Virus record (IMG/VR): IMGVR_UViG_2711768040_000017
Reading direction: 5' to 3' (one strand)
From: a virus
Taxonomy: Duplodnaviria > Heunggongvirae > Uroviricota > Caudoviricetes
Length of the DNA stretch: 19,081 bases
Part shown: positions 1 to 14,090 of the stretch, piece by piece
Layout: each line of letters opens with the position of its first letter
How positions within the stretch are numbered: position 1 is the first letter of the stretch
The notes under the pieces: model-generated
The model's database searches: none
What the model saw: the letters and a program-made list of their open reading frames with translations, nothing else
What the model was told of the DNA's origin: nothing
Position numbers and translations under genes: made by a program

Positions 1-2667
1 TCAGCTGATACTGATGCCTGCGGTGGCTTTCTTCATCACCACAACCAGCAAATCGCTGATACTTGCTGTGGGATACCAGTCATTTACCAGCCATGCTGAC
101 ACCGAAAACTCCAGCGTCATGTGGCCGTGACCAGCTGGCATATCAATAACACCACTGTAAATCAGCGTATTATCCAGCGCGGTACGGTTATAAATTTCAG
201 CACCATTTTTCTTCACTATCAGGCGGCATGAGGAGTAAATATCAGTATGCTCTCTCTCATGTTTAGCACCGCTGAATGCCACCGCCGGAATAACAATCTG
301 CCGGTCAAACGGCTGATCGTCATAAATCCTGACGGTAATGGTCCCTGATGGCCACCGCTCCGGTGCCCGGGAGTCCCGCGGGAAAGCCTTACCCACTGTT
401 TTGACAATATCGCCTTCAATCTGGTTGGCTGACAGTTTCCCTTTAATCTGACAGTTCTCATTTATCGTAACGTTGTTGAGCGTCCCGGCGTTCGCATTCA
501 CACTGCCACTGATATCTGCATTTTTAGCGGTCAGCTTTCCGTCCGGTGTCATGGAAAATGCAGGAGGATTACCGCCGCTGGTAATGGTGGGAGCCGTCAG
601 ATATTTCAGGAACACTTCATTCATGAATATCTGATCACCCTGACCAACAAACATCGGTTTTGTGTTGCCATTTGCAGGATTAATCATCGCAATCCTGTCT
701 GCCGCCAGCAGCACCTGACTCTGCATGCCGTCGGGGGTGTTCTCAATACCGGCACCGATACCCGCGATATAAAGGCGTCCGTCCTGCATCTGCTGCAGCT
801 TCACAGCCCACATGCTGTTCAGATTATTATTTGTATCAACCTGAACCTTCTGTATCTGCTGGATCGCTGCACTCTGGTCTTCCAGTTTCTTATTGACGGT
901 CTGTGTGATTTCATTGCTGACATCCGTAATGGACGTCCTGATTTCAGCCAGGTCAGGCGCAAGCTGACCGTTATCAATCTGCGTCCACAGCTCCTGAGCC
1001 AGATGGGTTTTCCCTATCTCGCCTTTGAAAAAATCCAGATAGCCGGATGCGTCATCACTCGGCTGACCAACAGCCTCCACGAATGCCGATTTGCCAACGG
1101 TGTTCACACTGCGAACGTAAAAATAATAATTATGGCCCGGCCTGATATTGATACTGGCGGCTATCCAGTACAGCGCCGTACCAAGATAGCGGGCTGTGGT
1201 TTCAACCTGCCTGATATCCGCAATCCGCTTTTCCGAGAACCAGAACTCAAACTGTACCGTCGGGTCATAAACGGCAAGATGCGGCGTGGCGGTTATCTGA
1301 AAATAGCCCGGCGTCAGCTCAAGCCGCGACGGCACTGCAGGTGCGGCAATCCGGAACGATACCGATGCCGGATCGCCCTGCTGCCCCCACGCATTTACCG
1401 CCCGGACTGTCAGCCTGTAGTTCCCTGGCGCCAGCTGCGTGAAGCGGTATGTGGTTTCCGTCGTCCGGGCCGTGCTGACCAGCCGCTCACTGCCGTCATC
1501 CGCTGCCACGGTCAGGCGAAGCAGGAAGCTCACGCCCTTCACCACCTTCGGCGTGTCCCAGCGCGCCAGCACCTGATATTCCCCGCTGTCTGCGGTGACT
1601 TCGGCGGTCAGGTGCTGCACCGCTGGCGGCGTGACACCATTCACCGTGCCGCTCTGGTCGCCGTCAAAGTGCGCCCCGTTATCCACGATGGCTTCTTTTT
1701 CCGGTACATGCTGCACGGCAGTGATGGCATACGTGCCGTCATCGTTCTCACGGATACTCACACAGCGGAACAGGCGCTGGCGCAGCGTCGGCAGCTTCAG
1801 CCCCCACACACTGTATTCTGCAACGCCGTCAGGAACCCGGTTCACTTTCACCTTAAGTCCGTCGGTGACGGACTGAACCTCCACGCTGACCGGATTACCA
1901 CTTCCGTCAACCAGGCTTATCAGCGTGGTACCGGAGGATGGCAGCGTGATTTCACGGTCGAGCGTCAGCGTCCGGGTCTGGCTGTTCACCGCCAGCACGC
2001 GACCACCGGTGCTGATACCGGCATAGTCATCATCGCAGATTTCAATGACATCCCCCGGTACATGGCGAAGCCCTTCCGCACCCACGCTGAAGTCCACGGT
2101 CTGCGTCTCCAGCAGTTCCGTTTTAATCAGCCACAGCCCGGCGCGGTGTGCCTGCCCCCGGCTGGTACAGCCAAAGGCATCCATCTTCGTGACATTACGA
2201 CCGTAACGGGCAATGGCCTGCGTATCTTCAACAAGCTCTGTCGCCGTCTCCCAGCCGTTGTCCGGGTCAATCCAGTTCACCTCAACGGCATTATGGCGGT
2301 CCTTCAGGGCGCTGAAGCTGTAGCGGAACGGCGCGCCATCATCCGGCATCACCACATTACTGCGGTTATAGGTGATATGTTCTGTCGCTGACCACGTTCG
2401 ACACACCACTCTGATTTTTCTGTTAATACCCGGCGGGCGCCAAAAAAAAGATTTATAGCCTTCATGCCGGGCTAAAAATTTTTCAAATGAATCACGTTCA
2501 TTCGCCTCAACTTTGAAATCACAGGTGAAAACGCGCAGAGAATGATTAAGTCCATTTGGACTTCGTTGCTCATAACCATCGCCAAATCTTACAGTTTTTA
2601 TCGATGGTTTATTTTCTGTTTTCATTCCATCCTCTGGTAACCAGTGAAATTCTTCCGTATTAGCCAC
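1..2667 (-). CDS. J: Chimeric tail-tip ORF: gpM-like N-terminus (~95 aa) fused in frame to the C-terminal ~790 aa of host-specificity protein J (central tail fibre). Probable GTG start overlapping the tape-measure stop.
   Basis: N-terminus ([31 protein letters not shown]) parallels lambda gpM motif for motif. From ..[37 protein letters not shown].. onward it is near-identical, as recalled, to lambda gpJ up to a diverged C-terminal receptor-binding end. Stop codon at 1-3. Confidence 0.8.
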
Positions 2668-6058: not shown

Positions 6059-6379
6059 CTACACACACTGCTCCTGAAAATACTGGTCATCCAGTGCAAA
6101 GATCACTGCTTCAAATTCATCGCGCTCAATCAATACCGGATGAGTGGCTAAATATTCATTTATCTCTGTCAGAGATAAAGGCAAAGGCACCCCAGCCATT
6201 CCAGCATAACGTCGGGCACGGGATATTACCGAATAGGCGTACAACAACTCCTTAAGCACCGGGTCTATTTCTGGTTCCGGTATCGGTGGCAACCTGAGTT
6301 TTTCTCGCTTCCATCTTGCCTTTTCCCCCCTTTCTCCCCCGAACTCCGATAACCACCGCTGGGCAGCTATGGCTTTTTT
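6059..6379 (-). CDS. T portion of tail assembly chaperone GT, reached by -1 frameshift from G; not independently initiated
   Basis: After slipping at aaaaaag, the -1 frame (gcc ata gct gcc cag cgg ...) runs uninterrupted into the 77-aa ORF frame (ttg cca ccg ata ccg = LPPIPEPEID) and ends 165 bp upstream of the tape measure gene. Confidence 0.55.
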   Translation of the reverse strand, partial: KKAIAAQRWLSEFGGERGEKARWKREKLRLPPIPEPEIDPVLKELLYAYSVISRARRYAGMAGVPLPLSLTEINEYLATHPVLIERDEFEAVIFALDDQYFQEQCV

Positions 6380-6801
6380 ATCGTATCCTGCTTCTGCTGC
6401 TCTTTACCCTGGGCGATGCTGGCTGCTTCTGCAAGGATCTGCCAGTACAACTCTGGATTCTGCTTAAGCAGCGCGATCCCTCGTTCTGCCGTATATTCCA
6501 GTGCAACCTCAACACCATTAACCAGTTCACCAACCCCTTTCCAGTCTTTCAGCAGATAACGAGCGGCATTATCAATGAGTAAATCATCAACAGAATCCAC
6601 CTCGGAAACCTTTGAAATATCAAACTCCTTCGTTCCGACGTGCAAACTGGCATCCATTTTCTCAATGTGGCGACGGATTAATGCATTACGGGAGCGATAC
6701 TGATCGTTATCGCTGCTTGCCACCAACAGTTTTAACCCGTCTATCCAGACTGCATGAGCAATTGATTCATCACGCAGCCGTTCATTCACGGTTTGCATCA
6801 T
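6367..6801 (-). CDS. Tail assembly chaperone (gpG-like), 144 aa
   Basis: Acidic small protein immediately upstream of the tape measure gene; its last codons (ata aaa aag cca tag) contain a canonical slippery heptamer. MMQ start, ATG at 6799-6801. Confidence 0.55.
   Translation of the reverse strand: MMQTVNERLRDESIAHAVWIDGLKLLVASSDNDQYRSRNALIRRHIEKMDASLHVGTKEFDISKVSEVDSVDDLLIDNAARYLLKDWKGVGELVNGVEVALEYTAERGIALLKQNPELYWQILAEAASIAQGKEQQKQDTIKKP
6373..6379 (-). other. Programmed -1 ribosomal frameshift slippery heptamer A_AAA_AAG (G to GT)
   Basis: Plus-strand ctttttt at 6373-6379 is aaaaaag on the minus strand, two codons before the G stop; the -1 frame is open for ~100 further codons. Confidence 0.55.
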
Positions 6802-8190: not shown

Positions 8191-9501
8191 TTAAATCCGA
8201 AGTGATGTGACTCTTCCGGTCGGTTTGACAATAGGGAATTGCTTAACGATGAAATAACCTCCGGCATCATTCGGGTGATCATTGCCAGATTTTTTATCAG
8301 GCTCCCCCTTATCATCCCAGACCTGTTGCTCCAGAGATTCGGCATATACCGGACAACGCTTCACATTAACTTTATAGCGACGCTCACCATTGGCATTGCA
8401 GAACATTGCATTCATTGAGTTAACGCGATCTTTTACTGGCGGGTTCGAGCTGTTCACCACAACGTTAAAACCTGCCTGCTTAAGCTGGGCTATATCCGTC
8501 GTACTTGCGTTACTTGATTTTCTGGAATCTCCGGAAGCATCTGGATAAATATAAATCTCCCTCACTTTCCGGTAATCATGCCCGTCATACAGCCAGAAGC
8601 GTTCTTTAATGAGGCGGATCATATCCGGCGTATCGTAGGCATTGATGATTTCAGTTACCGCACATGGAAGCCCCAAACGCAGCACATGGACGATTCCCGC
8701 CATCTTTCCAACGTTAAAATCCATCCCAATATAAATCGGCTCCCCTGGCTGCTCCACTTCTTCGCAATTATTCAGTTTCCGGTCAAACTGATGGTAAACA
8801 GTACCACTTGTCAGGTTAGTAAACCGTCCTAGAAGATAGGCTTTAATCAGCTCTGGAGGGTATGATTCAAGAAGTGAAGGAATGTAATCTGCTGGCAGGT
8901 TCTTTTCATTATCGAAAGTAGATGCCTGCACCAGACCATACAGTGAGGCCAGCTCTGTTTTTTCACGCACGGCTTTAACAAACTGCTCGTAGACAAATTT
9001 GAATCCTTCCGGCGTGGTTGTAACGTCAATACCGTTGCGAAGTCCATCAATCTTATAACGCATACGCGCAATTATCTTGCGCCACGCCGTTCTGGCTTTT
9101 TCCTTCGGCAAAATGTCCAGTTCATCCACCAGCGCATTACCAATTTTGAAACCGACGATCGTTTGTGGCTTCTCCATCGATCTGCAGATAGTGGTTCCCC
9201 GATACTGGCGTCCGTAATAAAAGTGAACCTCTTTATTTCCCTCATTAATTTTTACGTTCAATCCCCAGTCAGCAGCAACTTCTTCCACTGTAGGGTAAAA
9301 AATATCGCGAATTTGGGGATACGTTGGCGCAAAATATCCCTGATTTATACCTGGATGCTCCCAAATCCCCTTGCATATGCCGCCACACCCAACCCATGTT
9401 TTGCCCGAGCCAAAACCAGCAATATAGGCTTTAAATTTATGGGGCATTGAAAGAAATCGCGCCTGAGGCACATTAAGCGTCGGAGAGATCATCTTCATCA
9501 C
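8191..9501 (-). CDS. Terminase large subunit (436 aa)
   Basis: Walker A P-loop YIAGFGSGKTWVG near the N-terminus, acidic nuclease-type C-terminal half, and position between the small subunit and portal. Confidence 0.85.
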   Translation of the reverse strand: MMKMISPTLNVPQARFLSMPHKFKAYIAGFGSGKTWVGCGGICKGIWEHPGINQGYFAPTYPQIRDIFYPTVEEVAADWGLNVKINEGNKEVHFYYGRQYRGTTICRSMEKPQTIVGFKIGNALVDELDILPKEKARTAWRKIIARMRYKIDGLRNGIDVTTTPEGFKFVYEQFVKAVREKTELASLYGLVQASTFDNEKNLPADYIPSLLESYPPELIKAYLLGRFTNLTSGTVYHQFDRKLNNCEEVEQPGEPIYIGMDFNVGKMAGIVHVLRLGLPCAVTEIINAYDTPDMIRLIKERFWLYDGHDYRKVREIYIYPDASGDSRKSSNASTTDIAQLKQAGFNVVVNSSNPPVKDRVNSMNAMFCNANGERRYKVNVKRCPVYAESLEQQVWDDKGEPDKKSGNDHPNDAGGYFIVKQFPIVKPTGRVTSLRI

Positions 9502-10567
9502 TCCTTAATCTGGCATCAACCACATTAATATTGATCGCCACAGGCTGGGGATGTTCATTATCCTCCACCGTTTCGATCTCTTTGCGCAGCTTCTGGTTCT
9601 CTATTCTGCGCCGTTCAATTTCCAGTTCCTGTAGCCGCTTATCTGCACATAATGCCCCGCCAGCAGAAAGCAAACGCAACAATTCACGCCGGGCGGCAGC
9701 CTTATCCTCCAGCAGGATCTCAACACCGTATTTTCCGAGCTTTGACCCTGCATATAATTGCCGCGCATCCCCATCAAGCAGTGTGGTATCAGCCATATAA
9801 AGCTGTCCTGTTCCCTCACCGCAGCACTTCGGGCAATCAGGATTGGGTATGGCGTTATCAACAAAGCCGAGGCCTCCATATTCCGGCTCGGGTTTACCAT
9901 CTCTGGAGGCCTGTGCCGCAGCCTTATCGAATTCTGCAATATCACGCCACTGGTAGAGATGATTCTCGCCCCAGCAATAACGGCAGTTAACACGGCGAAA
10001 TTGTGCCAACTGATTGGGGTCGGCCTGGACAATGGCCATCAACTGGCTCACCAGTAAATCCAGGTCTGCGGTATAGCGTTTCTGGTACTGATTGCGGAAG
10101 TAGCTGATAGCACGATAAACCCTGGCATTTCTAAGCATACGGCTGGCGTTGCTGTTAGCTGTCGCACCTTGCCCCTCATAACCAGCCAGTCGGTATGCCT
10201 CTGTCGGCTTTTTCCCCTGAGCAACCAACATGGCGAATTTTGCCTGCTGGTCAGAAATACCGAATTCATCGGGGCAGAACGAAATTTCTTCCGTGTCCCC
10301 CTCAATCAGGAGTGCATCGGATACAGCCTTTTTTTTCTGAGATTTTCCGTTCTGCCTTTGCGCAGTCTGCGCAGTTTTTTTTCGCGCACTTTTTTGCGCA
10401 GTTTTGCGCATTTCTTTCTGCGCATTTTTCGGAGTTTTTTTGATGTAACGACGGGCTGTTGCGTAGTTCAGTCCCCTTGCTTCACACCATGCCACCGGAG
10501 ATATACCGGAGCGGGTGTATTCAGCAATATACTCCTGCTGCAACGCCCCCCAGTCCGGTCTGCTCAT
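9473..10567 (-). CDS. Putative terminase small subunit / DNA-packaging DNA-binding protein (364 aa)
   Basis: N-terminal HTH-like segment (..ISPVAWCEARGLNYATARRYIKK..), Lys/Arg-rich low-complexity linker, Cys cluster (CRYCWGENH .. CPKCCGEG), coiled-coil C-terminus; immediately precedes and overlaps the terminase large subunit gene. Confidence 0.45.
   Translation of the reverse strand: MSRPDWGALQQEYIAEYTRSGISPVAWCEARGLNYATARRYIKKTPKNAQKEMRKTAQKSARKKTAQTAQRQNGKSQKKKAVSDALLIEGDTEEISFCPDEFGISDQQAKFAMLVAQGKKPTEAYRLAGYEGQGATANSNASRMLRNARVYRAISYFRNQYQKRYTADLDLLVSQLMAIVQADPNQLAQFRRVNCRYCWGENHLYQWRDIAEFDKAAAQASRDGKPEPEYGGLGFVDNAIPNPDCPKCCGEGTGQLYMADTTLLDGDARQLYAGSKLGKYGVEILLEDKAAARRELLRLLSAGGALCADKRLQELEIERRRIENQKLRKEIETVEDNEHPQPVAININVVDARLRSDEDDLSDA
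10355..10430 (-). repeat. Cluster of six T(T/C)(T/C)GCGCA repeats within the terminase small subunit gene
   Basis: Plus strand carries tttgcgcag, tctgcgcag, ttcgcgcac, tttgcgcag, tttgcgcat, tctgcgcat within ~70 bp flanked by T-runs; it encodes the basic KTAQK/SARKK/TAQTAQRQ linker. Confidence 0.5.
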
Positions 10568-10570
10568 CAG

Positions 10571-10822
10571 TTAGTCCTGATTTTTATCCACCCTGAGTAG
10601 TTCGCGCAGAGCAAAGGCATCCCCTTTTCTGGCAAGCTTAAACAATGCCGCTCGTAACTCGGCTTCACCTTTCGCTCTGCCCTTACGGATGGCCGCATAA
10701 AAATCTGTCATTGCTTCCCGATTTTCTTTCAGTCGGTTCAGATCAACATCCAGAACGTCAGCGATTTGTTGTGCAGTCATCCGGCACGCTGCCAGAGACT
10801 CGACTTTCGAATACGGAATCAT
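10571..10822 (-). CDS. Small hypothetical protein (83 aa) with an HTH-like segment
   Basis: GGGGGTGA Shine-Dalgarno 4 nt before the ATG at 10822; MTAQQIADVLDVDLNRL resembles a helix-turn-helix. Overlaps the upstream gene end by 65 nt. Confidence 0.3.
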   Translation of the reverse strand: MIPYSKVESLAACRMTAQQIADVLDVDLNRLKENREAMTDFYAAIRKGRAKGEAELRAALFKLARKGDAFALRELLRVDKNQD

Positions 10823-11714
10823 TTGTCACCCCCATTGATATGCAGGGTGTCTTCTTCCTGTATTTTTCGTGAAGGATTTTTACTGCAGCGTTGTTCCAGG
10901 TGACCTGATGGTGAATGCGTTTATGGCTGGCACCCATCAGTGAGATTTTTACGCACGACGGCGAATACATGACGGAGTAAAAACTTTTAACGTAGGTTCC
11001 GGAATCCAGATACAGCTCGGTCATTCCGCCGCTGTTTTTCTGCGTCTGTTTCTGCCCTAACTGGACAGCACCGATCGTCATAAACAATTCACCACAGCGA
11101 CCGAGATTCGTGTACGTATTCACATCCTCGTTAATGCGCCCCATGAATGAGAACGGTCGATCAACCGAACAGATAAAGCTGTTCATTGCCTTGCGTTTCA
11201 CCCACGAAGCATGGCCGCCATTGTCACCAAGAAAATCCCCGCCCTGCGACATAGCGATGGAAAGCGCGGGTATTGATTCGTAATACGCCAGCATTTCAGA
11301 AAGGATCGCATCCAGTTTCCTTATCGGGAAATAGGCCTGGTCATAGTTGCGATCCACCCGAAACTGGAACTCGTGATAATCATCATCGAGCTGAATGAAG
11401 TATTTACACCCGACCAGTTTTGCCAGGTCGAAACAGGCATTACGGGCGTAAAAAATTGAGCGGCGATCACCAAAATTATCGGCTTCGTCAAAACGACTGG
11501 CAATATCGGCTTTGGAAAATACCAGCACCTGTTCACCAAATTCAGCCATGTACTGATGCCGTGTCTTATCTTCATCATCAACAACGATAAAAATTTTCCC
11601 GGTATAGCCAGCACGACGCAACGTCCGGTAAGTCAGAACTTTGTCCGGTCGCCCGTGAGTCAGAATAAAGGCGCAAAAATCATCACGCATATTCCTCCTC
11701 CTCCTCCCCGCCAT
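10758..11714 (-). CDS. Hypothetical protein (318 aa) with DXD-type acidic motifs; possible nucleotide-sugar transferase-like fold
   Basis: Hydrophobic strand then Gly (CAFILTHGRPDK), then IFIVVDDEDK and YFIQLDDDYHEF; translationally overlaps the ParB-like gene upstream. Assignment is by motif only. Confidence 0.3.
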   Translation of the reverse strand: MAGRRRRNMRDDFCAFILTHGRPDKVLTYRTLRRAGYTGKIFIVVDDEDKTRHQYMAEFGEQVLVFSKADIASRFDEADNFGDRRSIFYARNACFDLAKLVGCKYFIQLDDDYHEFQFRVDRNYDQAYFPIRKLDAILSEMLAYYESIPALSIAMSQGGDFLGDNGGHASWVKRKAMNSFICSVDRPFSFMGRINEDVNTYTNLGRCGELFMTIGAVQLGQKQTQKNSGGMTELYLDSGTYVKSFYSVMYSPSCVKISLMGASHKRIHHQVTWNNAAVKILHEKYRKKTPCISMGVTNDSVFESRVSGSVPDDCTTNR

Positions 11715-12477
11715 GCATGATCTCCACCATGCGCTGCGTCATTCGGACAAATCCATTTTCAATAGCCTGCTGATAATCAATGATCACCAGCGCCGACTCC
11801 TCGAAAAGGCACTGAATTTCAGCGGGGGCATGAGCGTAATAGTCCGCAATTCTGCTGAAATTAAACACTGTGTGACGTTCTGCCGCACACAGGAGGAATT
11901 TCTCAATATCAGGATCAAGGGACGCCGAACGTATCCGGCTGATCAGCTCCTGAGTTTTCGTATCGTCGTACAGTTCACTGATATCCGGTTTACCGCCCGA
12001 CGGCTCATAAACAGGCGTATCAATTTTCGTCGTATACGGCTCCTCCTCATTTCCTGTACCGGGCAAAACATCCGTCAACAGTTCATCAATTTCTGTCGGG
12101 ATGAAGCCTGTCAGGGAGACATCAAAATCAGCATTGATTAGGTCCGACAGCTCCATCCGCAACAGATCTTCATCCCAGCCAGCATTCATCGGCAGGCGAT
12201 TATCTGCCAGGCGGTACGCCTTTTTCTGCTCATCCGTCAGGCCAGACAGAACAATGACCGGAACAGAATCCATTTTGAGCATTTCAGCCGCCATAACACG
12301 ACCGTGACCCGCAATAATTTCGCCCTTTTCGTCAATCAGCACCGGATTAGTCCAGCCGAATTGCTTAATACTTTCTACCAGTTGTGCCACCTGCTCAGGG
12401 CTGTGCGTCCTGGCGTTGTGCGCATACGGTGACAATTCTTGTAATGGGCGATAGACTATCTTTAATTTCTCGCTCAT
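11683..12477 (-). CDS. ParB-like nuclease domain protein (264 aa)
   Basis: N-terminal ParB/sulfiredoxin-type motif ..NPVLIDEKGEIIAGHGRVMAA.. and acidic C-terminus (GGEEEEEYA). Confidence 0.7.
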   Translation of the reverse strand: MSEKLKIVYRPLQELSPYAHNARTHSPEQVAQLVESIKQFGWTNPVLIDEKGEIIAGHGRVMAAEMLKMDSVPVIVLSGLTDEQKKAYRLADNRLPMNAGWDEDLLRMELSDLINADFDVSLTGFIPTEIDELLTDVLPGTGNEEEPYTTKIDTPVYEPSGGKPDISELYDDTKTQELISRIRSASLDPDIEKFLLCAAERHTVFNFSRIADYYAHAPAEIQCLFEESALVIIDYQQAIENGFVRMTQRMVEIMHGGEEEEEYA

Positions 12478-12504: not shown

Positions 12505-12528
12505 CCCCAGCAGCCAGTGCTACTGGGG
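12505..12528 (-). terminator. Possible terminator hairpin downstream of trkG
   Basis: ccccag / ctgggg inverted repeat followed on the minus strand by tgcgttttatt; large loop, so weak. Confidence 0.25.
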
Positions 12529-12614: not shown

Positions 12615-14090
12615 TTAGGAGCGCCAAAAAAAACCTGAAAACAATATAATAACAGGATAAATTTCAAGGCGACCAAGAATCATAGCTATGCACATTAAAC
12701 ATTTTGCAATGTCATTAAGCACTCCGAATGACGATGCAGTAGCCCCAAAACCTAATCCCATATTATTAATACATGCAGCCACTGTTGCAAATGATGTAAG
12801 AAAATCATATCCCATACCATTTAACACCAGTATAAAAAACACCGTGAAGAGAGTATAAAGAAAAAAGAAACTCCATACAGACCTCATTACACGATCTGTA
12901 ACTATCTTCCCTCCTACATTTACACTCAACAACGCTCTGGGATGAGAAAGCTGATTTATCTCGTGTTTGCTTTGTTTGAAAAGTATAAGAAATCGAAGTG
13001 ACTTAATTCCACCACAAGTTGAACCTATACATCCCCCAAAGAAACTTGACAACAGCAAAAACACTATCGTGTGCGTGGGCCAACTTGCATAATCCTGCGT
13101 AGCTAAACCATTATCAGTGAGCATGGAGCTGGCAAGAAAAAACGAATGAATAAAACTTCCATGCAAGTCATACATACCTATATGCCAGACCTGGAAAGAG
13201 GTAACAATGATCACCCCTAAGGCTATTAACAGAAAGAAACGAAGTTCAATATCTCTGATTAAAGGTTTTATCGTTTTCCTGCTAATAACAATATACCAAA
13301 GAGTGAAGTTGAAAGCCGATAGCAGGGAAAAAGAACCAGCCACCAGCTCAACCAAATAGTTATTAAAATATCCGATACTCTCGCTATGAGTTGAGAAACC
13401 ACCAAGCGAAACTGTGGAAATCCCGTGACAAATAGCATCAAACAAAGGCATTCCTGCAAGTCTATAACAGACAATACAAGCAATACCTAATAAAGAATAA
13501 GTTATCCACAGTGTCCGTGACGTATCGGCCAGGCGGGGAGTGAGTTTGTCATCCTTAAATGGCCCCGGCATTTCTGACTGATAAAGCTTTGCACCACCAA
13601 TACCCAATAATGGCAATACAGCAACCGCCAGAACAATAACTCCTAAACCACCTATAAAATTTAACTGTGACCGATAGTACAAATATGCCCGAGGTAATGA
13701 ACTAACATCATCAATTACAGTTGCTCCTGTTGTTGTTATTCCAGAAACCCCTTCAAACAGAGCATCAATGAACGTTAAATTAAGTTCTGAGTCAATCCAT
13801 AAAGGGAATGCACTAATAACAGAAAACAAAATCCAAAACATTACAATTATAATAAACCCATCACGGGTACGTAATTGAATGCCAGATTTCTTAGTTGTAT
13901 ACCACGCTCCGCCACCAATGCAAAAAAATATAACGAAAGTTATAAAGAAAACGAACAGGCTTTTTTCTTTATAAAACAATGCTACAACCATTGGTGGCAA
14001 CATTGAAAGACTATAGAGCCAAACCAGGAACCCACACATATGAGTAACAACTCTTACATGAGATGTATTCATATCTAAATATTCTTTCAA
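12615..14090 (-). CDS. trkG: Potassium uptake protein TrkG (Trk-system membrane subunit); true start probably the internal MNTSHVRV at 14072
   Basis: Polytopic membrane protein with repeated pore-loop glycine motifs; translation matches E. coli TrkG as recalled (MNTSHVRVVTHMCGFLVWLYSL..). Markedly AT-rich relative to flanking phage genes. Confidence 0.85.
   Translation of the reverse strand: MKEYLDMNTSHVRVVTHMCGFLVWLYSLSMLPPMVVALFYKEKSLFVFFITFVIFFCIGGGAWYTTKKSGIQLRTRDGFIIIVMFWILFSVISAFPLWIDSELNLTFIDALFEGVSGITTTGATVIDDVSSLPRAYLYYRSQLNFIGGLGVIVLAVAVLPLLGIGGAKLYQSEMPGPFKDDKLTPRLADTSRTLWITYSLLGIACIVCYRLAGMPLFDAICHGISTVSLGGFSTHSESIGYFNNYLVELVAGSFSLLSAFNFTLWYIVISRKTIKPLIRDIELRFFLLIALGVIIVTSFQVWHIGMYDLHGSFIHSFFLASSMLTDNGLATQDYASWPTHTIVFLLLSSFFGGCIGSTCGGIKSLRFLILFKQSKHEINQLSHPRALLSVNVGGKIVTDRVMRSVWSFFFLYTLFTVFFILVLNGMGYDFLTSFATVAACINNMGLGFGATASSFGVLNDIAKCLMCIAMILGRLEIYPVIILFSGFFWRS

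What the first reader, a model, noticed from the sequence alone, without database searches (positions are those of the whole stretch)
10571..12477. ParB-like nuclease, DXD-motif enzyme and small HTH protein between trkG and terminase
Three translationally overlapping genes sit between the lysis/trkG region and the packaging genes. The first has a clear ParB/sulfiredoxin-type GHGR motif; such proteins sit next to terminases in many phages and may act in DNA processing. The second (318 aa) has two acidic DXD-type motifs after predicted beta-strands, compatible with a nucleotide-sugar or nucleotide transferase and hence a possible DNA or protein modification activity. The third is an 83-aa HTH-like protein. 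Their functions are unassigned.
Basis: partly seen in the sequence, partly recalled or inferred. Interest (0 to 1): 0.5.

Follow-up and report, generated by a model that had tools for sequence, protein, structure and literature searches.

The report
Prophage glycosyltransferase with its dedicated ParB-like partner
Between trkG and the terminase genes of this E. coli Rac-like prophage lies a widespread two-gene phage module: a TAGT-family sugar transferase and a ParB-like partner protein that always accompanies it. It probably attaches sugars to phage DNA, but without the hydroxymethyl-base enzymes that known DNA sugar transferases depend on, so its target is unknown.

Summary
The three genes are real, conserved and under purifying selection, but they are not one three-part unit.

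- **Partner.** The ParB-like protein is full-length YnaK; the K-12 gene is a truncated remnant. It has a ParB/Srx NTP-binding-type N-domain, the kind fused to phage DNA methyltransferases. It also has a previously unnamed ~110-aa C-terminal domain.
- **The C-terminal domain is the constant partner.**
  - It sits next to a TAGT gene in 84/84 and 80/80 related loci.
  - It occurs alone, without ParB, in 27/80 loci.
  - It is fused to TAGT in one protein.
- **Range.** The pair is found in enterobacterial, Lactobacillus and Nocardia phages and in a haloarchaeal virus. It lies next to terminase or replication genes.
- **No precursor enzymes.** No TET/JBP or hydroxymethylase accompanies the pair. 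The complete 31.8-kb phage c5 has none.
- **Third gene.** The 83-aa protein travels with the terminase type, not with the pair.

Best reading, at about 0.5 confidence: a late-expressed, ParB-tethered DNA glycosylation module whose acceptor is unknown. I found no evidence of nuclease activity.

The parts
11683..12477 (-). Partner protein: full-length YnaK, 264 aa. It consists of a ParB/Srx N-domain, a short acidic linker and a conserved C-terminal domain.
   Evidence: - Pfam ParB_N matches residues 23-90 (E 1.2e-6). phrog_620 matches over the full length (E 1.5e-90).
- A full-length homologue lies next to TAGT in 84/84 loci found through TAGT; in one of them (L078) it is about 3 kb away.
- RefSeq annotates only an 86-codon 'ynaK pseudogene' fragment here.
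12058..12477 (-). ParB/Srx (CTPase-fold) N-terminal domain, residues ~1-140, containing GHGR (57-60) and DN (92-93).
   Evidence: - A profile built from homologues hits Noc/ParB/Spo0J structures over residues 12-98 only (E 7e-6).
- Residues 10-144 match the N-terminal part of PADLOC MTase_II (E 2.5e-38) and of phrog_498 DNA methyltransferase.
- Among 70 distinct homologues, G57 is kept in 70, R60 in 68 and N93 in 68.
11686..12036 (-). TAGT-partner domain, residues ~148-264. Motif: Y[TS]xK[IV]xxPxYxP ... FL..AA.RH.VF ... IA.YY ... Q.L.E.SALVIID ... AI.NG[FY]V. No Pfam family covers it.
   Evidence: - It is conserved from E. coli to Lactobacillus phage c5 and the archaeal virus HHTV-2, while the N-domain varies.
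- All 80 loci found through this domain carry a TAGT gene nearby.
- In 27 of those 80 it is a stand-alone protein of 121-151 aa. Vibrio phage pv27 has a 139-aa stand-alone form.
- It has 1183 cluster representatives among 1.84 billion.
- There is no Pfam hit.
- Thirteen residues are invariant in 70/70 homologues.
10758..11690 (-). TAGT-family GT-A glycosyltransferase, 310 aa.
   Evidence: - PF20691 TAGT scores E 6e-35 and phrog_842 scores E 1.5e-103.
- The start at M9 is shared by all homologues.
- R, DDD and NED motifs are invariant.
11692..11709 (-). GGGGAGGAGGAGGAGGAA run. It encodes the Glu-rich tail of the partner and lies just upstream of the TAGT ATG as a Shine-Dalgarno-like sequence. 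The two genes overlap by 8 nt (11683-11690).
   Evidence: Read directly from the sequence. Translational coupling is inferred.
10571..10822 (-). 83-aa small protein that belongs to the packaging (TerS) module rather than to the glycosyltransferase pair.
   Evidence: - phrog_309 'terminase small subunit', profile positions 145-218, E 8e-23. No Pfam or NCBIfam hit.
- It is present, with its start conserved (residues 1-83 aligned, 60-100% identity), in the loci that have the homologous TerS. It is absent from nearly all loci with other terminase types, with one weak exception in L085.
- dN/dS 0.12.
9473..10567 (-). Terminase small subunit (context).
   Evidence: Pfam Terminase_2 E 1.2e-8 and phrog_51 E 6e-75.
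8191..9501 (-). Terminase large subunit (context).
   Evidence: Terminase_6N E 3.5e-32 and Terminase_6C E 7.8e-11.
12505..12528 (-). Terminator-like hairpin followed by a T-run, between trkG and the partner gene.
   Evidence: Consensus scan: 10-bp stem with 7 GC pairs. Function not shown.
12615..14090 (-). trkG, a low-GC inserted gene upstream of the module (context).
   Evidence: Pfam TrkH E 5e-145. GC is 0.378, against 0.48-0.51 for the neighbouring genes.

Best explanation
**What was shown.**
- Genes 11683..12477 and 10758..11690 form a self-contained two-gene module.
- One gene encodes a GT-A glycosyltransferase of the TAGT family. Characterised relatives of this family put sugars on hydroxymethyl-pyrimidines in DNA, or on sugars already attached there.
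- The other encodes a dedicated partner protein. Its conserved ~110-aa C-terminal domain is the TAGT-specific part. Its N-terminal ParB/Srx domain is the same type that is fused to phage DNA methyltransferases.

**What is inferred.**
- The C-terminal domain binds the transferase and completes or activates it.
- The ParB domain holds the complex on duplex DNA, possibly as an NTP-gated clamp.
- The module sits in the late operon, directly before TerS and TerL, so it would be made late in infection.
- The enzyme then transfers a sugar from a host nucleotide-sugar such as UDP-glucose onto phage DNA after replication and before or during packaging. This would protect the DNA from host nucleases.

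**Unknowns and exclusions.**
- No TET/JBP dioxygenase or pyrimidine hydroxymethylase accompanies the module, so the acceptor group is unknown. It may be a canonical base.
- The 83-aa protein is an accessory of the small terminase and not part of the module.
For: **Family and fold.**
- Pfam TAGT E 6e-35.
- GT-A fold.
- Invariant R...DDD...ED motifs, as described for phage DNA GT-A enzymes in bioRxiv 10.1101/2023.12.21.572611.

**The two genes are obligately paired.**
- 84/84 loci found through TAGT have the partner. About 40 of these are not near-identical E. coli prophages.
- 80/80 loci found through the partner's C-terminal domain have TAGT. These reduce to 56 non-redundant loci.
- One protein, P0505, carries TAGT, ParB_N and the C-terminal domain in a single chain.
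- In this window the genes overlap by 8 nt, with a ribosome-binding-like sequence inside the partner's tail.

**Pointers to DNA as the target.**
- The ParB N-domain matches the N-terminal part of DNA methyltransferase fusions (E 2.5e-38; phrog_498).
- Its NTP-binding motifs are retained.
- Neighbouring genes are either terminases of at least four families, or a sliding clamp, PolA and DnaB.
- A precedent exists: phage ParB-like proteins that lack a DNA-binding domain activate thymine dioxygenases on double-stranded DNA (PMC13229309).

**Independence from hydroxymethyl bases.**
- The complete phage c5 (31.8 kb) has the pair as ORF1 and ORF2 right after cos, and no TET/JBP, thymidylate-synthase-like protein or methyltransferase.
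- The annotated Rac-like prophage has none either.
- None is recurrent in the neighbourhoods of 56 loci.

**Behaves like a glycan-building cluster.**
- Some loci add a second TAGT paralogue (14 of the 22 intervening-gene loci examined).
- Others add cytidylyltransferase-phosphatase fusions, CofD plus a nucleotidyltransferase, or a radical SAM enzyme.

**Not a lysogenic-conversion gene.** The module is also present in phage c5, whose annotation shows no integrase.
Against: - No DNA modification has been measured for any phage carrying this module.
- All characterised DNA glycosyltransferases need a hydroxymethyl (or hydroxy) pyrimidine or a sugar as acceptor, and none is provided here.
- The family also includes a protein O-GlcNAc transferase, GREB1 (PMC7968844).
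- A third of the modules lack the ParB domain altogether, so DNA tethering by ParB cannot be essential to the chemistry.
- The role of the C-terminal domain is inferred from co-occurrence only.
- The C-terminal ~95 residues of the transferase were modelled with low confidence.
- The neighbourhood scan lists only the 25 most frequent of 72 families, so a rare TET/JBP could have been missed.
Confidence: 0.5

Rival explanations
1. The transferase glycosylates a protein rather than DNA. The target could be its own partner, at the invariant Tyr residues of the Y[TS]xK..PxYxP motif, in the way glycogenin primes itself. Alternatively it could be a packaging or virion protein. In this reading the ParB domain only places the reaction near DNA or the terminase.
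For: - The TAGT superfamily includes GREB1, which O-GlcNAcylates a protein.
- Structural neighbours include peptide and protein glycosyltransferases (SunS, ThuS, POMGnT1, GalNAc-T, glycogenin).
- The partner has two invariant tyrosines (Y148 and Y157, 70/70) in an otherwise linker-like stretch.
- No hydroxymethyl-base source exists.
- The module usually lies next to the structural and packaging genes.
- One related locus, L002, also has GT2 genes after the capsid gene.
Against: - Similarity to those structures is generic GT-A similarity (about 10% identity).
- The ParB N-domain is the type fused to DNA methyltransferases.
- In large phages the pair lies among replication genes, not structural genes.
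- Invariant R201-H202, E226 and D234 in the partner look more like a functional site than an acceptor peptide.
Confidence: 0.2
2. This is the classical TAGT role. The enzyme glycosylates 5-hydroxymethyl-cytosine or -uracil, or extends a sugar on them, and the precursor is made by enzymes encoded elsewhere in the phage or by the host.
For: - Family membership.
- The T2/T6 enzyme and the TET-linked enzymes of this family act in this way.
- ParB genes are common next to phage 5mYOX genes.
Against: - The complete genome of phage c5 and the Rac-like prophage encode no dioxygenase, hydroxymethylase or cytosine methyltransferase.
- No such family recurs within 4 kb in 56 non-redundant loci.
- E. coli, Lactobacillus and Haloarcula DNA is not known to contain hydroxymethyl-pyrimidines (established knowledge).
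- This clade is only 23-25% identical to the TAGTs of T4-like phages.
Confidence: 0.12
3. One reading: the ParB-like protein is a nuclease or DNA-processing accessory of the terminase, and the transferase is an unrelated inserted gene that happens to lie beside it.
For: - The position is directly upstream of TerS and TerL in most loci.
- In Nocardia phage NTR1 no TerS gene lies between the pair and TerL.
Against: - The two genes co-occur without exception and are fused in one protein.
- The pairing holds across at least four unrelated terminase families and also in replication-gene contexts.
- The conserved part of the partner is the non-ParB domain, and 27/80 modules have no ParB domain.
- No nuclease motif or family was detected.
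Confidence: 0.08
4. The pair modifies a host cell-envelope glycan, as in seroconversion or superinfection exclusion. Alternatively it acts as a prophage-encoded defence.
For: - Prophage glycosyltransferases often modify O-antigen or teichoic acid. TarP, for example, was a top structural hit for phage GT-A enzymes.
- Accessory genes in related loci resemble CDP-glycerol or ADP-heptose pathway enzymes.
Against: - No PADLOC defence model matches the transferase.
- The genes sit in the late lytic operon, not near the immunity or integration region.
- The module occurs in phage c5, whose annotation shows no integrase, and in a 191-kb lytic-type Vibrio phage.
- The partner carries a DNA-associated ParB domain.
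Confidence: 0.05

Closest known systems
TAGT family (Pfam PF20691), including the T2/T6 beta-glucosyl-HMC-alpha-glucosyltransferase and TET/5mYOX-linked phage GT-A DNA glycosyltransferases; related to trypanosome JGT and animal GREB1
   Same: - Clear sequence membership (E 6e-35).
- GT-A fold.
- Conserved R...DDD...ED catalytic motifs.
- Phage-encoded.
   Different: - No TET/JBP, ThyS-like hydroxymethylase, alpha-GT or beta-GT accompanies it.
- It is only 23-25% identical to the enzymes of T4-like phages.
- It always comes with a dedicated partner domain that I did not find described for the characterised enzymes.
- PMC13216743 notes that 288 of 753 TAGT-encoding phages have 'solitary' TAGTs of undefined function. 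This protein belongs to that unexplained group.
ParB-dependent phage thymine dioxygenases (5mYOX plus ParB; PMC13229309, 2026)
   Same: - A DNA-modification-type enzyme is encoded beside a ParB-like protein.
- That protein has an N-terminal NTP-binding domain, a linker and a C-terminal domain, with no recognisable DNA-binding HTH.
- Terminase genes are often nearby.
   Different: - The enzyme here is a glycosyltransferase, not a dioxygenase.
- Homology between the two C-terminal domains could not be tested because their sequences are not held.
- Here the C-terminal domain also occurs without any ParB domain.
ParB-CTPase-fold / DNA methyltransferase fusion proteins of phages and prophages (PMC12704722; phrog_498; PADLOC MTase_II)
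   Same: The N-terminal ~140 residues are the same domain type (E 2.5e-38 to the N-terminal part of such fusions). These are typically prophage-encoded.
   Different: Here the catalytic partner is a separate polypeptide of a different enzyme class. It is joined through a dedicated adaptor-like domain rather than by covalent fusion, except in rare proteins such as P0505.
Chromosomal and plasmid ParB (ParABS partition) and Noc
   Same: ParB/Srx N-domain with GxxR and N motifs. A profile matches Noc/ParB/Spo0J structures over residues 12-98.
   Different: - No ParA gene.
- No HTH DNA-binding domain or canonical dimerisation domain detected.
- Scores lie below the TIGR00180 cut-off (38.5 against 58.45).
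- It is not a partition protein, despite GenBank labels such as 'chromosome partitioning protein'.
E. coli K-12 YnaK (Rac prophage)
   Same: The same gene. RefSeq labels the N-terminal 86 codons here as ynaK.
   Different: K-12 YnaK is a truncated remnant. The K-12 Rac deletion removed the rest of this gene, the glycosyltransferase and the packaging and head genes. The protein here is the intact 264-aa form.

Membership tests
TAGT (PF20691) glycosyltransferase family | Significant match to the family profile, above the curated cut-off | tested here: met
   121.5 bits against a cut-off of 27.5, E 6.1e-35, residues 16-230. phrog_842 E 1.5e-103.
TAGT (PF20691) glycosyltransferase family | GT-A (nucleotide-diphospho-sugar transferase) fold | tested here: met
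   - In the AF2 model residues 1-215 mostly have pLDDT 80-97.
- Foldseek PDB and BFVD searches agree.
- The C-terminal ~95 residues were modelled poorly.
TAGT (PF20691) glycosyltransferase family | Catalytic R...DDD...ED(Y/F) motifs of phage DNA GT-A enzymes | tested here: met
   R22, D110-D112 and N195-E196-D197 (318-aa numbering) are invariant in 18-25 homologues.
TAGT (PF20691) glycosyltransferase family | Genomic association with TET/JBP (5mYOX) or with a pyrimidine hydroxymethylase that supplies the acceptor | tested here: not met
   - None in the window or in the annotated full prophage.
- None in the complete phage c5 proteome.
- None recurrent in 56 loci.
TAGT (PF20691) glycosyltransferase family | Transfers a sugar to 5hmC or 5hmU in DNA, or to a sugar already attached there | not testable with these tools
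   Needs biochemistry or LC-MS of DNA.
ParB/Srx (ParB_N, CTPase fold) | Match to the ParB N-terminal domain | tested here: met
   - PF02195 scores 28.9 bits against a cut-off of 26.3.
- A profile matches Noc/ParB/Spo0J PDB chains at E 7e-6 to 1e-4 over residues 12-98.
ParB/Srx (ParB_N, CTPase fold) | Nucleotide-binding motifs: box II GxxR and the box III Asn | tested here: met
   GHGR at 57-60 and DN at 92-93. Among distinct homologues G57 is kept in 70/70, R60 in 68/70 and N93 in 68/70. Actual NTP binding was not tested.
Canonical partition ParB (ParABS) | Central HTH DNA-binding domain, C-terminal dimerisation domain and a ParA partner | tested here: not met
   - No match beyond residue ~98 to any ParB structure.
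- TIGR00180 is below its cut-off.
- No ParA gene lies in the window or in the annotated prophage.
ParB-like nuclease | Nuclease active site or nuclease activity | not testable with these tools
   No nuclease family matched. 'Nuclease' is a historical domain name, not a finding.
ParB-dependent DNA-modification enzyme pairs (5mYOX/ParB type) | The enzyme gene lies beside a ParB-like gene whose product has an NTP-binding domain and a C-terminal domain but no DNA-binding domain | tested here: met
   Adjacency with an 8-nt overlap. Architecture.
ParB-dependent DNA-modification enzyme pairs (5mYOX/ParB type) | The partner enzyme is a Fe/2OG 5-methylpyrimidine dioxygenase, and ParB is required for its activity on dsDNA | tested here: not met
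   The enzyme here is a GT-A glycosyltransferase. Its dependence on the partner was not testable.
Terminase small subunit (for the 83-aa protein) | Full-length match to a TerS family | tested here: inconclusive
   - It matches only positions 145-218 of the 319-position phrog_309 profile (E 8e-23).
- No Pfam or NCBIfam hit.
- No similarity to the adjacent TerS.
- It co-occurs with that TerS type.

The most novel reading that the evidence does not exclude
The TAGT/partner heteromer may be a new kind of DNA glycosyltransferase that needs no hydroxymethyl-pyrimidine precursor. It would put a sugar directly on a canonical base, or on another universal DNA group. The ~110-aa partner domain would supply acceptor recognition or part of the active site, and the optional ParB domain would act as an NTP-gated DNA tether. 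If so, about a sixth to a third of E. coli genomes, many Lactobacillus and actinobacterial phages and an archaeal virus would encode an undescribed DNA modification.
Probability: 0.3. Interest if true: 0.85.

Novelty: new variant of a known kind. Interest (0 to 1): 0.6.

Why it matters
**Why it would be new.** All characterised phage DNA sugar modifications start from a hydroxymethylated or hydroxylated pyrimidine. This module carries the sugar transferase but not the precursor enzymes. It is nevertheless strictly conserved, with a dedicated partner, across viruses of bacteria and archaea, and it is common in E. coli. Two recent papers explicitly leave such 'solitary' TAGT-type enzymes unexplained.

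**What the possible answers would mean.**
- If the pair modifies DNA directly, that would be a new DNA modification chemistry and a new anti-restriction strategy.
- If it modifies a protein, that would be a new use of the ParB fold.

**Why it is testable.** It needs only two E. coli genes expressed in K-12, which lacks them, followed by nucleoside mass spectrometry.

**Annotation fixes.**
- RefSeq's 'ynaK pseudogene' here is an intact gene.
- 'Partitioning protein' and 'nuclease' are misleading labels for it.

Tried and rejected
**Attempts that failed or gave nothing.**
- Single-sequence AlphaFold of the 318-aa ORF gave an unusable model (pLDDT 40). This used one of only two structure jobs, so the partner protein could not be modelled.
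- A profile search of TAGT against PDB sequences found nothing.
- The afdb50 fold library was unavailable.
- The Iyer et al. 2013 paper that defined TAGT is not held. What I say about it rests on how others cite it.
- The supplements of the ParB/5mYOX paper are not held, so I could not compare its ParB sequences with this one.
- A literature search on 'ynaK' returned only unrelated papers.

**Readings considered and rejected.**
- Known defence-system component: PADLOC matches only the ParB domain, through methyltransferase fusions.
- The 83-aa protein is a duplicate of part of the adjacent TerS: no similarity.
- The radical SAM enzyme found beside TAGT in some relatives is a viperin or QueE: all NCBIfam matches are far below their cut-offs.
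- The partner's C-terminal domain belongs to a Pfam family: only weak hits, the best being PF23887 at E 0.007 in 5 of 14 sequences.
Full report
**Setting**

The window is a Rac-like lambdoid prophage of E. coli. The 2.3 kb around the finding is 100% identical to many E. coli chromosomes. It occurs in 1619 of 5426 complete genomes, and 866 of them have at least 80% of it. Ten induced-phage or prophage-derived GenBank records also carry it.

All relevant genes are on the minus strand, in this order: lysis genes, trkG, the three genes of the finding, TerS, TerL, portal. trkG has a GC content of 0.378, against 0.48-0.51 for its neighbours. A terminator-like hairpin follows it at 12528-12505. This fits the usual view of trkG as an inserted gene.

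**Checking the observation**

The GHGR motif and the two acidic motifs are present and invariant among homologues.

The second gene starts at the ATG at 11690, not at 11714, for two reasons:
- Every homologue begins MR(D/E)DF.
- A GGAGGAGGAGGAGGA run encoding the partner's Glu-rich tail lies just upstream as a ribosome-binding-like site, and the start overlaps the partner's stop codon (ATGCGTGA).

The protein is therefore 310 aa. The E. coli version has about 21-25 extra C-terminal residues compared with the ~288-aa homologues. That extension creates the 65-nt overlap with the 83-aa gene.

dN/dS against a diverged relative (L044) is 0.14 for the partner, 0.07 for TAGT and 0.12 for the 83-aa gene. 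All three are real genes under selection.

**The 310-aa protein**

- It matches Pfam PF20691, TAGT (TET-associated glycosyltransferase), at E 6e-35, far above the curated cut-off.
- It matches PHROG 842, labelled with the T2/T6 beta-glucosyl-HMC-alpha-glucosyltransferase, at E 1.5e-103.
- UniProt and NCBI name close homologues 'GREB1-related protein'.
- No solved structure is detectable by sequence.
- An AlphaFold model built from 25 sequences is confident over residues 1-215.
- Foldseek against viral models returns TAGT-domain phage proteins first.

The fold prediction holds.

**The ParB-like protein**

- Only residues ~12-98 resemble ParB, Noc or Spo0J.
- Residues 10-144 match the N-terminal part of ParB-methyltransferase fusions much more strongly: PADLOC MTase_II at E 2.5e-38 and phrog_498 at E 1.2e-50.
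- GHGR is the box-II GxxR motif of the ParB NTP-binding fold. This motif and the box-III Asn are kept in 68-70 of 70 distinct homologues.
- No HTH domain, canonical dimerisation domain, ParA gene or nuclease family was found.
- RefSeq annotates only 258 nt of this ORF, as a 'ynaK pseudogene, missing C-terminus', and leaves about 530 nt unannotated. This appears to be because the K-12 reference YnaK is itself a deletion remnant.

**The key result: what is constant**

*Searching from TAGT.* I searched IMG/VR with a TAGT alignment and added JGI and Logan contigs. All 84 loci have a full-length homologue of this partner next to TAGT. In 83 it is directly upstream; in L078 it is about 3 kb away. 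About half of these loci are near-identical E. coli prophages. The rest range down to 55% TAGT identity and 32% partner identity.

*Occurrence in named phages.* The same pair is found in:
- Lactobacillus phages c5, LL-Ku, phiLdb, Ld17 and phi jlb1;
- Nocardia phage NTR1;
- the haloarchaeal virus HHTV-2, as genes 21 and 22.

*Which part is conserved.* Aligning partners from distant loci shows that the ParB N-domain drifts (GHGR becomes GGNMR or GNGT). The last ~115 residues are strongly conserved. They begin with Y[TS]xK[IV]xxPxYxP and continue through FL..AA.RH.VF ... SALVIID ... AI.NG[FY]V. Thirteen residues are invariant in 70 of 70 sequences: Y148, Y157, R201, H202, F205, A211, Y214, Q222, L224, E226, D234, A238 and G242. 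No Pfam family covers this domain.

*Searching from the C-terminal domain.* Searching with this domain alone, with the c5 sequence first, gave 80 further loci, 56 of them non-redundant. All 80 have a TAGT gene, usually within 60 nt. In 27 of the 80 the domain is a stand-alone protein of 121-151 aa with no ParB domain. Vibrio phage pv27 (191 kb) has such a 139-aa protein directly upstream of its TAGT, among primase, exonuclease and helicase genes.

*Family size and a fusion.* A search of 1.84 billion cluster representatives finds 1183 proteins with the domain, always at the C-terminus. One of them, P0505, is a single chain comprising a TAGT domain (Pfam E 4e-33), a ParB N-domain and the partner domain. 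Its residues 268-507 align to residues 12-250 of the window protein at 39% identity, E 2e-48.

*Conclusion.* The obligate unit is TAGT plus the ~110-aa domain. The ParB domain is a frequent but optional addition.

**Context and accessory genes**

*Flanking genes.* The module is flanked by large terminases of at least four unrelated families, or by replication genes. Counts among the 150 nearest ORFs are:
- Terminase_3, 14;
- Terminase_6N, 12;
- GpA, 2;
- T7-type terminase, 2;
- sliding clamp, 9;
- PolA, 4;
- DnaB, 1.

HK97-type terminases flank the module. Position next to a particular terminase is therefore not what is conserved; association with DNA transactions is.

*Extra genes in some loci.* These are a second TAGT paralogue, His-phosphatase or HAD-phosphatase fusions with a cytidylyltransferase-like domain, CofD plus a nucleotidyltransferase, and a ~320-aa radical SAM protein. 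The radical SAM gene usually lies directly after TAGT, in 12-14 of the 56 loci. These look like sugar-donor and glycan diversification genes. That is typical of hypermodification clusters, and it argues that the transferase is active.

**The missing precursor**

Characterised relatives act on 5hmC or 5hmU, or on a sugar already attached to them. Here I found no source of such bases:
- Phage c5 is a complete 31.8-kb cos phage. Its ORF1 and ORF2, right after cos, are the pair. A Pfam scan of all 49 proteins, plus a separate scan of ten unassigned ORFs, found no TET/JBP, thymidylate-synthase-like protein or methyltransferase.
- The fully annotated Rac-like prophage has none.
- No such family is among the 25 most frequent within 4 kb in 56 loci. 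One caveat applies: the tool lists only 25 of the 72 families hit.

The literature agrees that this is an open question. PMC13216743 reports 288 of 753 TAGT-encoding phages with 'solitary' TAGTs of undefined function. The GT-mining preprint sets aside the ~65% of GT contigs that lack a 5mYOX or ThyS neighbour. I found no paper in the held library on this pair.

**Mechanism**

*Shown:*
- a GT-A TAGT enzyme;
- an obligately co-occurring partner domain, sometimes fused to the enzyme;
- a methyltransferase-type ParB domain that retains its NTP-binding motifs;
- tight gene coupling, placement in the late operon and purifying selection.

*Inferred:*
- The partner's C-terminal domain binds TAGT and completes or activates it. 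The poorly modelled, highly conserved C-terminal ~95 residues of TAGT may fold only in that complex.
- The ParB domain tethers the complex to duplex DNA. The precedent is phage ParB-like proteins that lack a DNA-binding domain yet switch on thymine dioxygenases specifically on dsDNA (PMC13229309).
- The product is sugar-modified phage DNA, made late, as is known for Mu Mom (established knowledge), for protection against host nucleases.

The acceptor is the weak point of this model. I put about 0.5 on DNA glycosylation overall, and within that about 0.3 on direct modification of unmodified DNA.

*Rivals:*
- glycosylation of a protein, possibly the partner's invariant tyrosines (0.2);
- the classical hydroxymethyl-base role with an unlinked precursor source (0.12);
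- a packaging or nuclease role for ParB with an unrelated transferase (0.08);
- envelope glycan modification or defence (0.05).

**The 83-aa protein**

- It matches part of a TerS PHROG and shows no similarity to the adjacent TerS.
- It is present, with a conserved start, in the loci that have the homologous Terminase_2-type TerS.
- It is absent from almost all modules with other terminases.

I assign it to the packaging genes. Its helix-turn-helix character is plausible from the sequence but was not tested.

**Verdict**

The transferase prediction is right and can be named precisely. The 'nuclease' label and the three-gene grouping are not supported.

The family and the general ParB/modification-enzyme theme are known. 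I did not find the following described: strict dependence on a dedicated small partner domain, independence from hydroxymethyl-base enzymes, and presence in a large fraction of E. coli genomes.

I rate it a new variant of a known kind, with interest 0.6.

Noticed in passing
window 2363-2373 and 6742-6743 (compared with L001): The prophage in this window is defective compared with the otherwise near-identical prophage in strain DSM 103246. It lacks about 6.06 kb between ydaY and the portal gene, covering minor head protein, scaffold, major capsid, connectors and tail tube. It also lacks about 3.2 kb inside the tail J-to-M region, which leaves fused ORFs (1..2667 and 6367..6801). It also lacks the IS2 that is present in L001.
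   Followed up: partly
window 11683-12477; L001 21291-22078: RefSeq (PGAP) annotates only 258 nt of the intact 264-codon ORF, as 'ynaK, pseudogene, missing C-terminus'. About 530 nt of coding sequence is left unannotated, apparently because the K-12 reference YnaK is a truncated remnant. GenBank phage records call the same protein 'chromosome (plasmid) partitioning protein'.
   Followed up: partly
L089 5200-6156, L093 5191-6165, L088 5938-6948, L104 4336-5313 and others: A conserved ~320-aa radical SAM protein (CNNxCPYC) lies next to TAGT, usually directly after it, in 12-14 of 56 non-redundant related loci. It fits no specific NCBIfam subfamily. It could make an unusual donor or prepare the acceptor.
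   Followed up: partly
L088 4326-5180, L113 1689-2540, L109 4320-5994 and others: In 14 of the 22 intervening-gene loci examined, a second, divergent TAGT paralogue is inserted between the partner gene and TAGT. This suggests stepwise building of a di-saccharide.
   Followed up: partly
L126 4311-5291, L110 5350-6093, L091 2845-5285: Other insertions in the module are a His-phosphatase or HAD-phosphatase fused to a TagD/RfaE-II-like cytidylyl/adenylyl-transferase, and CofD plus a MobA-like nucleotidyltransferase. These are probably for synthesis of an activated donor.
   Followed up: partly
P0505 (534 aa, metagenomic): A single protein combines a divergent TAGT domain, a ParB N-domain and the partner C-terminal domain.
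   Followed up: yes
window 10758-10822: The E. coli TAGT has a ~21-25-residue C-terminal extension that is absent from homologues in other genera. It overlaps the start of the 83-aa gene by 65 nt. In relatives the two genes are about 20 nt apart.
   Followed up: no
proteins P0029, P0044, P0201, P0218, P0232, P0234 and others: Many E. coli entries are chimeric ORFs in which fragments of TAGT or of the partner are joined to tail-fibre, Lom/Ail or terminase sequences. These look like footprints of repeated, different deletions in Rac-like prophages, like the K-12 ynaK-ydaY deletion.
   Followed up: no
L002 15837-16894: A distant phage carrying the module also has two GT2-family glycosyltransferase genes just after its capsid gene. 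This is a possible virion glycosylation locus unrelated to the module.
   Followed up: no
L169 (Nocardia phage NTR1) 3-3408: In NTR1 the partner and TAGT genes are followed directly by TerL, with no recognisable TerS gene between them.
   Followed up: no
partner C-terminal domain (alignment A5): Five of 14 diverse C-terminal domains give weak hits (best E 0.007) to PF23887, 'Phage L5 gene 47-like protein'. This may be chance or a very distant relationship.
   Followed up: no
window 9473-10567: The N-terminus of TerS (residues 11-55) weakly resembles the HTH of the IS66 accessory protein TnpA (NCBIfam E 2e-4, below the cut-off). This is probably just a shared helix-turn-helix.
   Followed up: no
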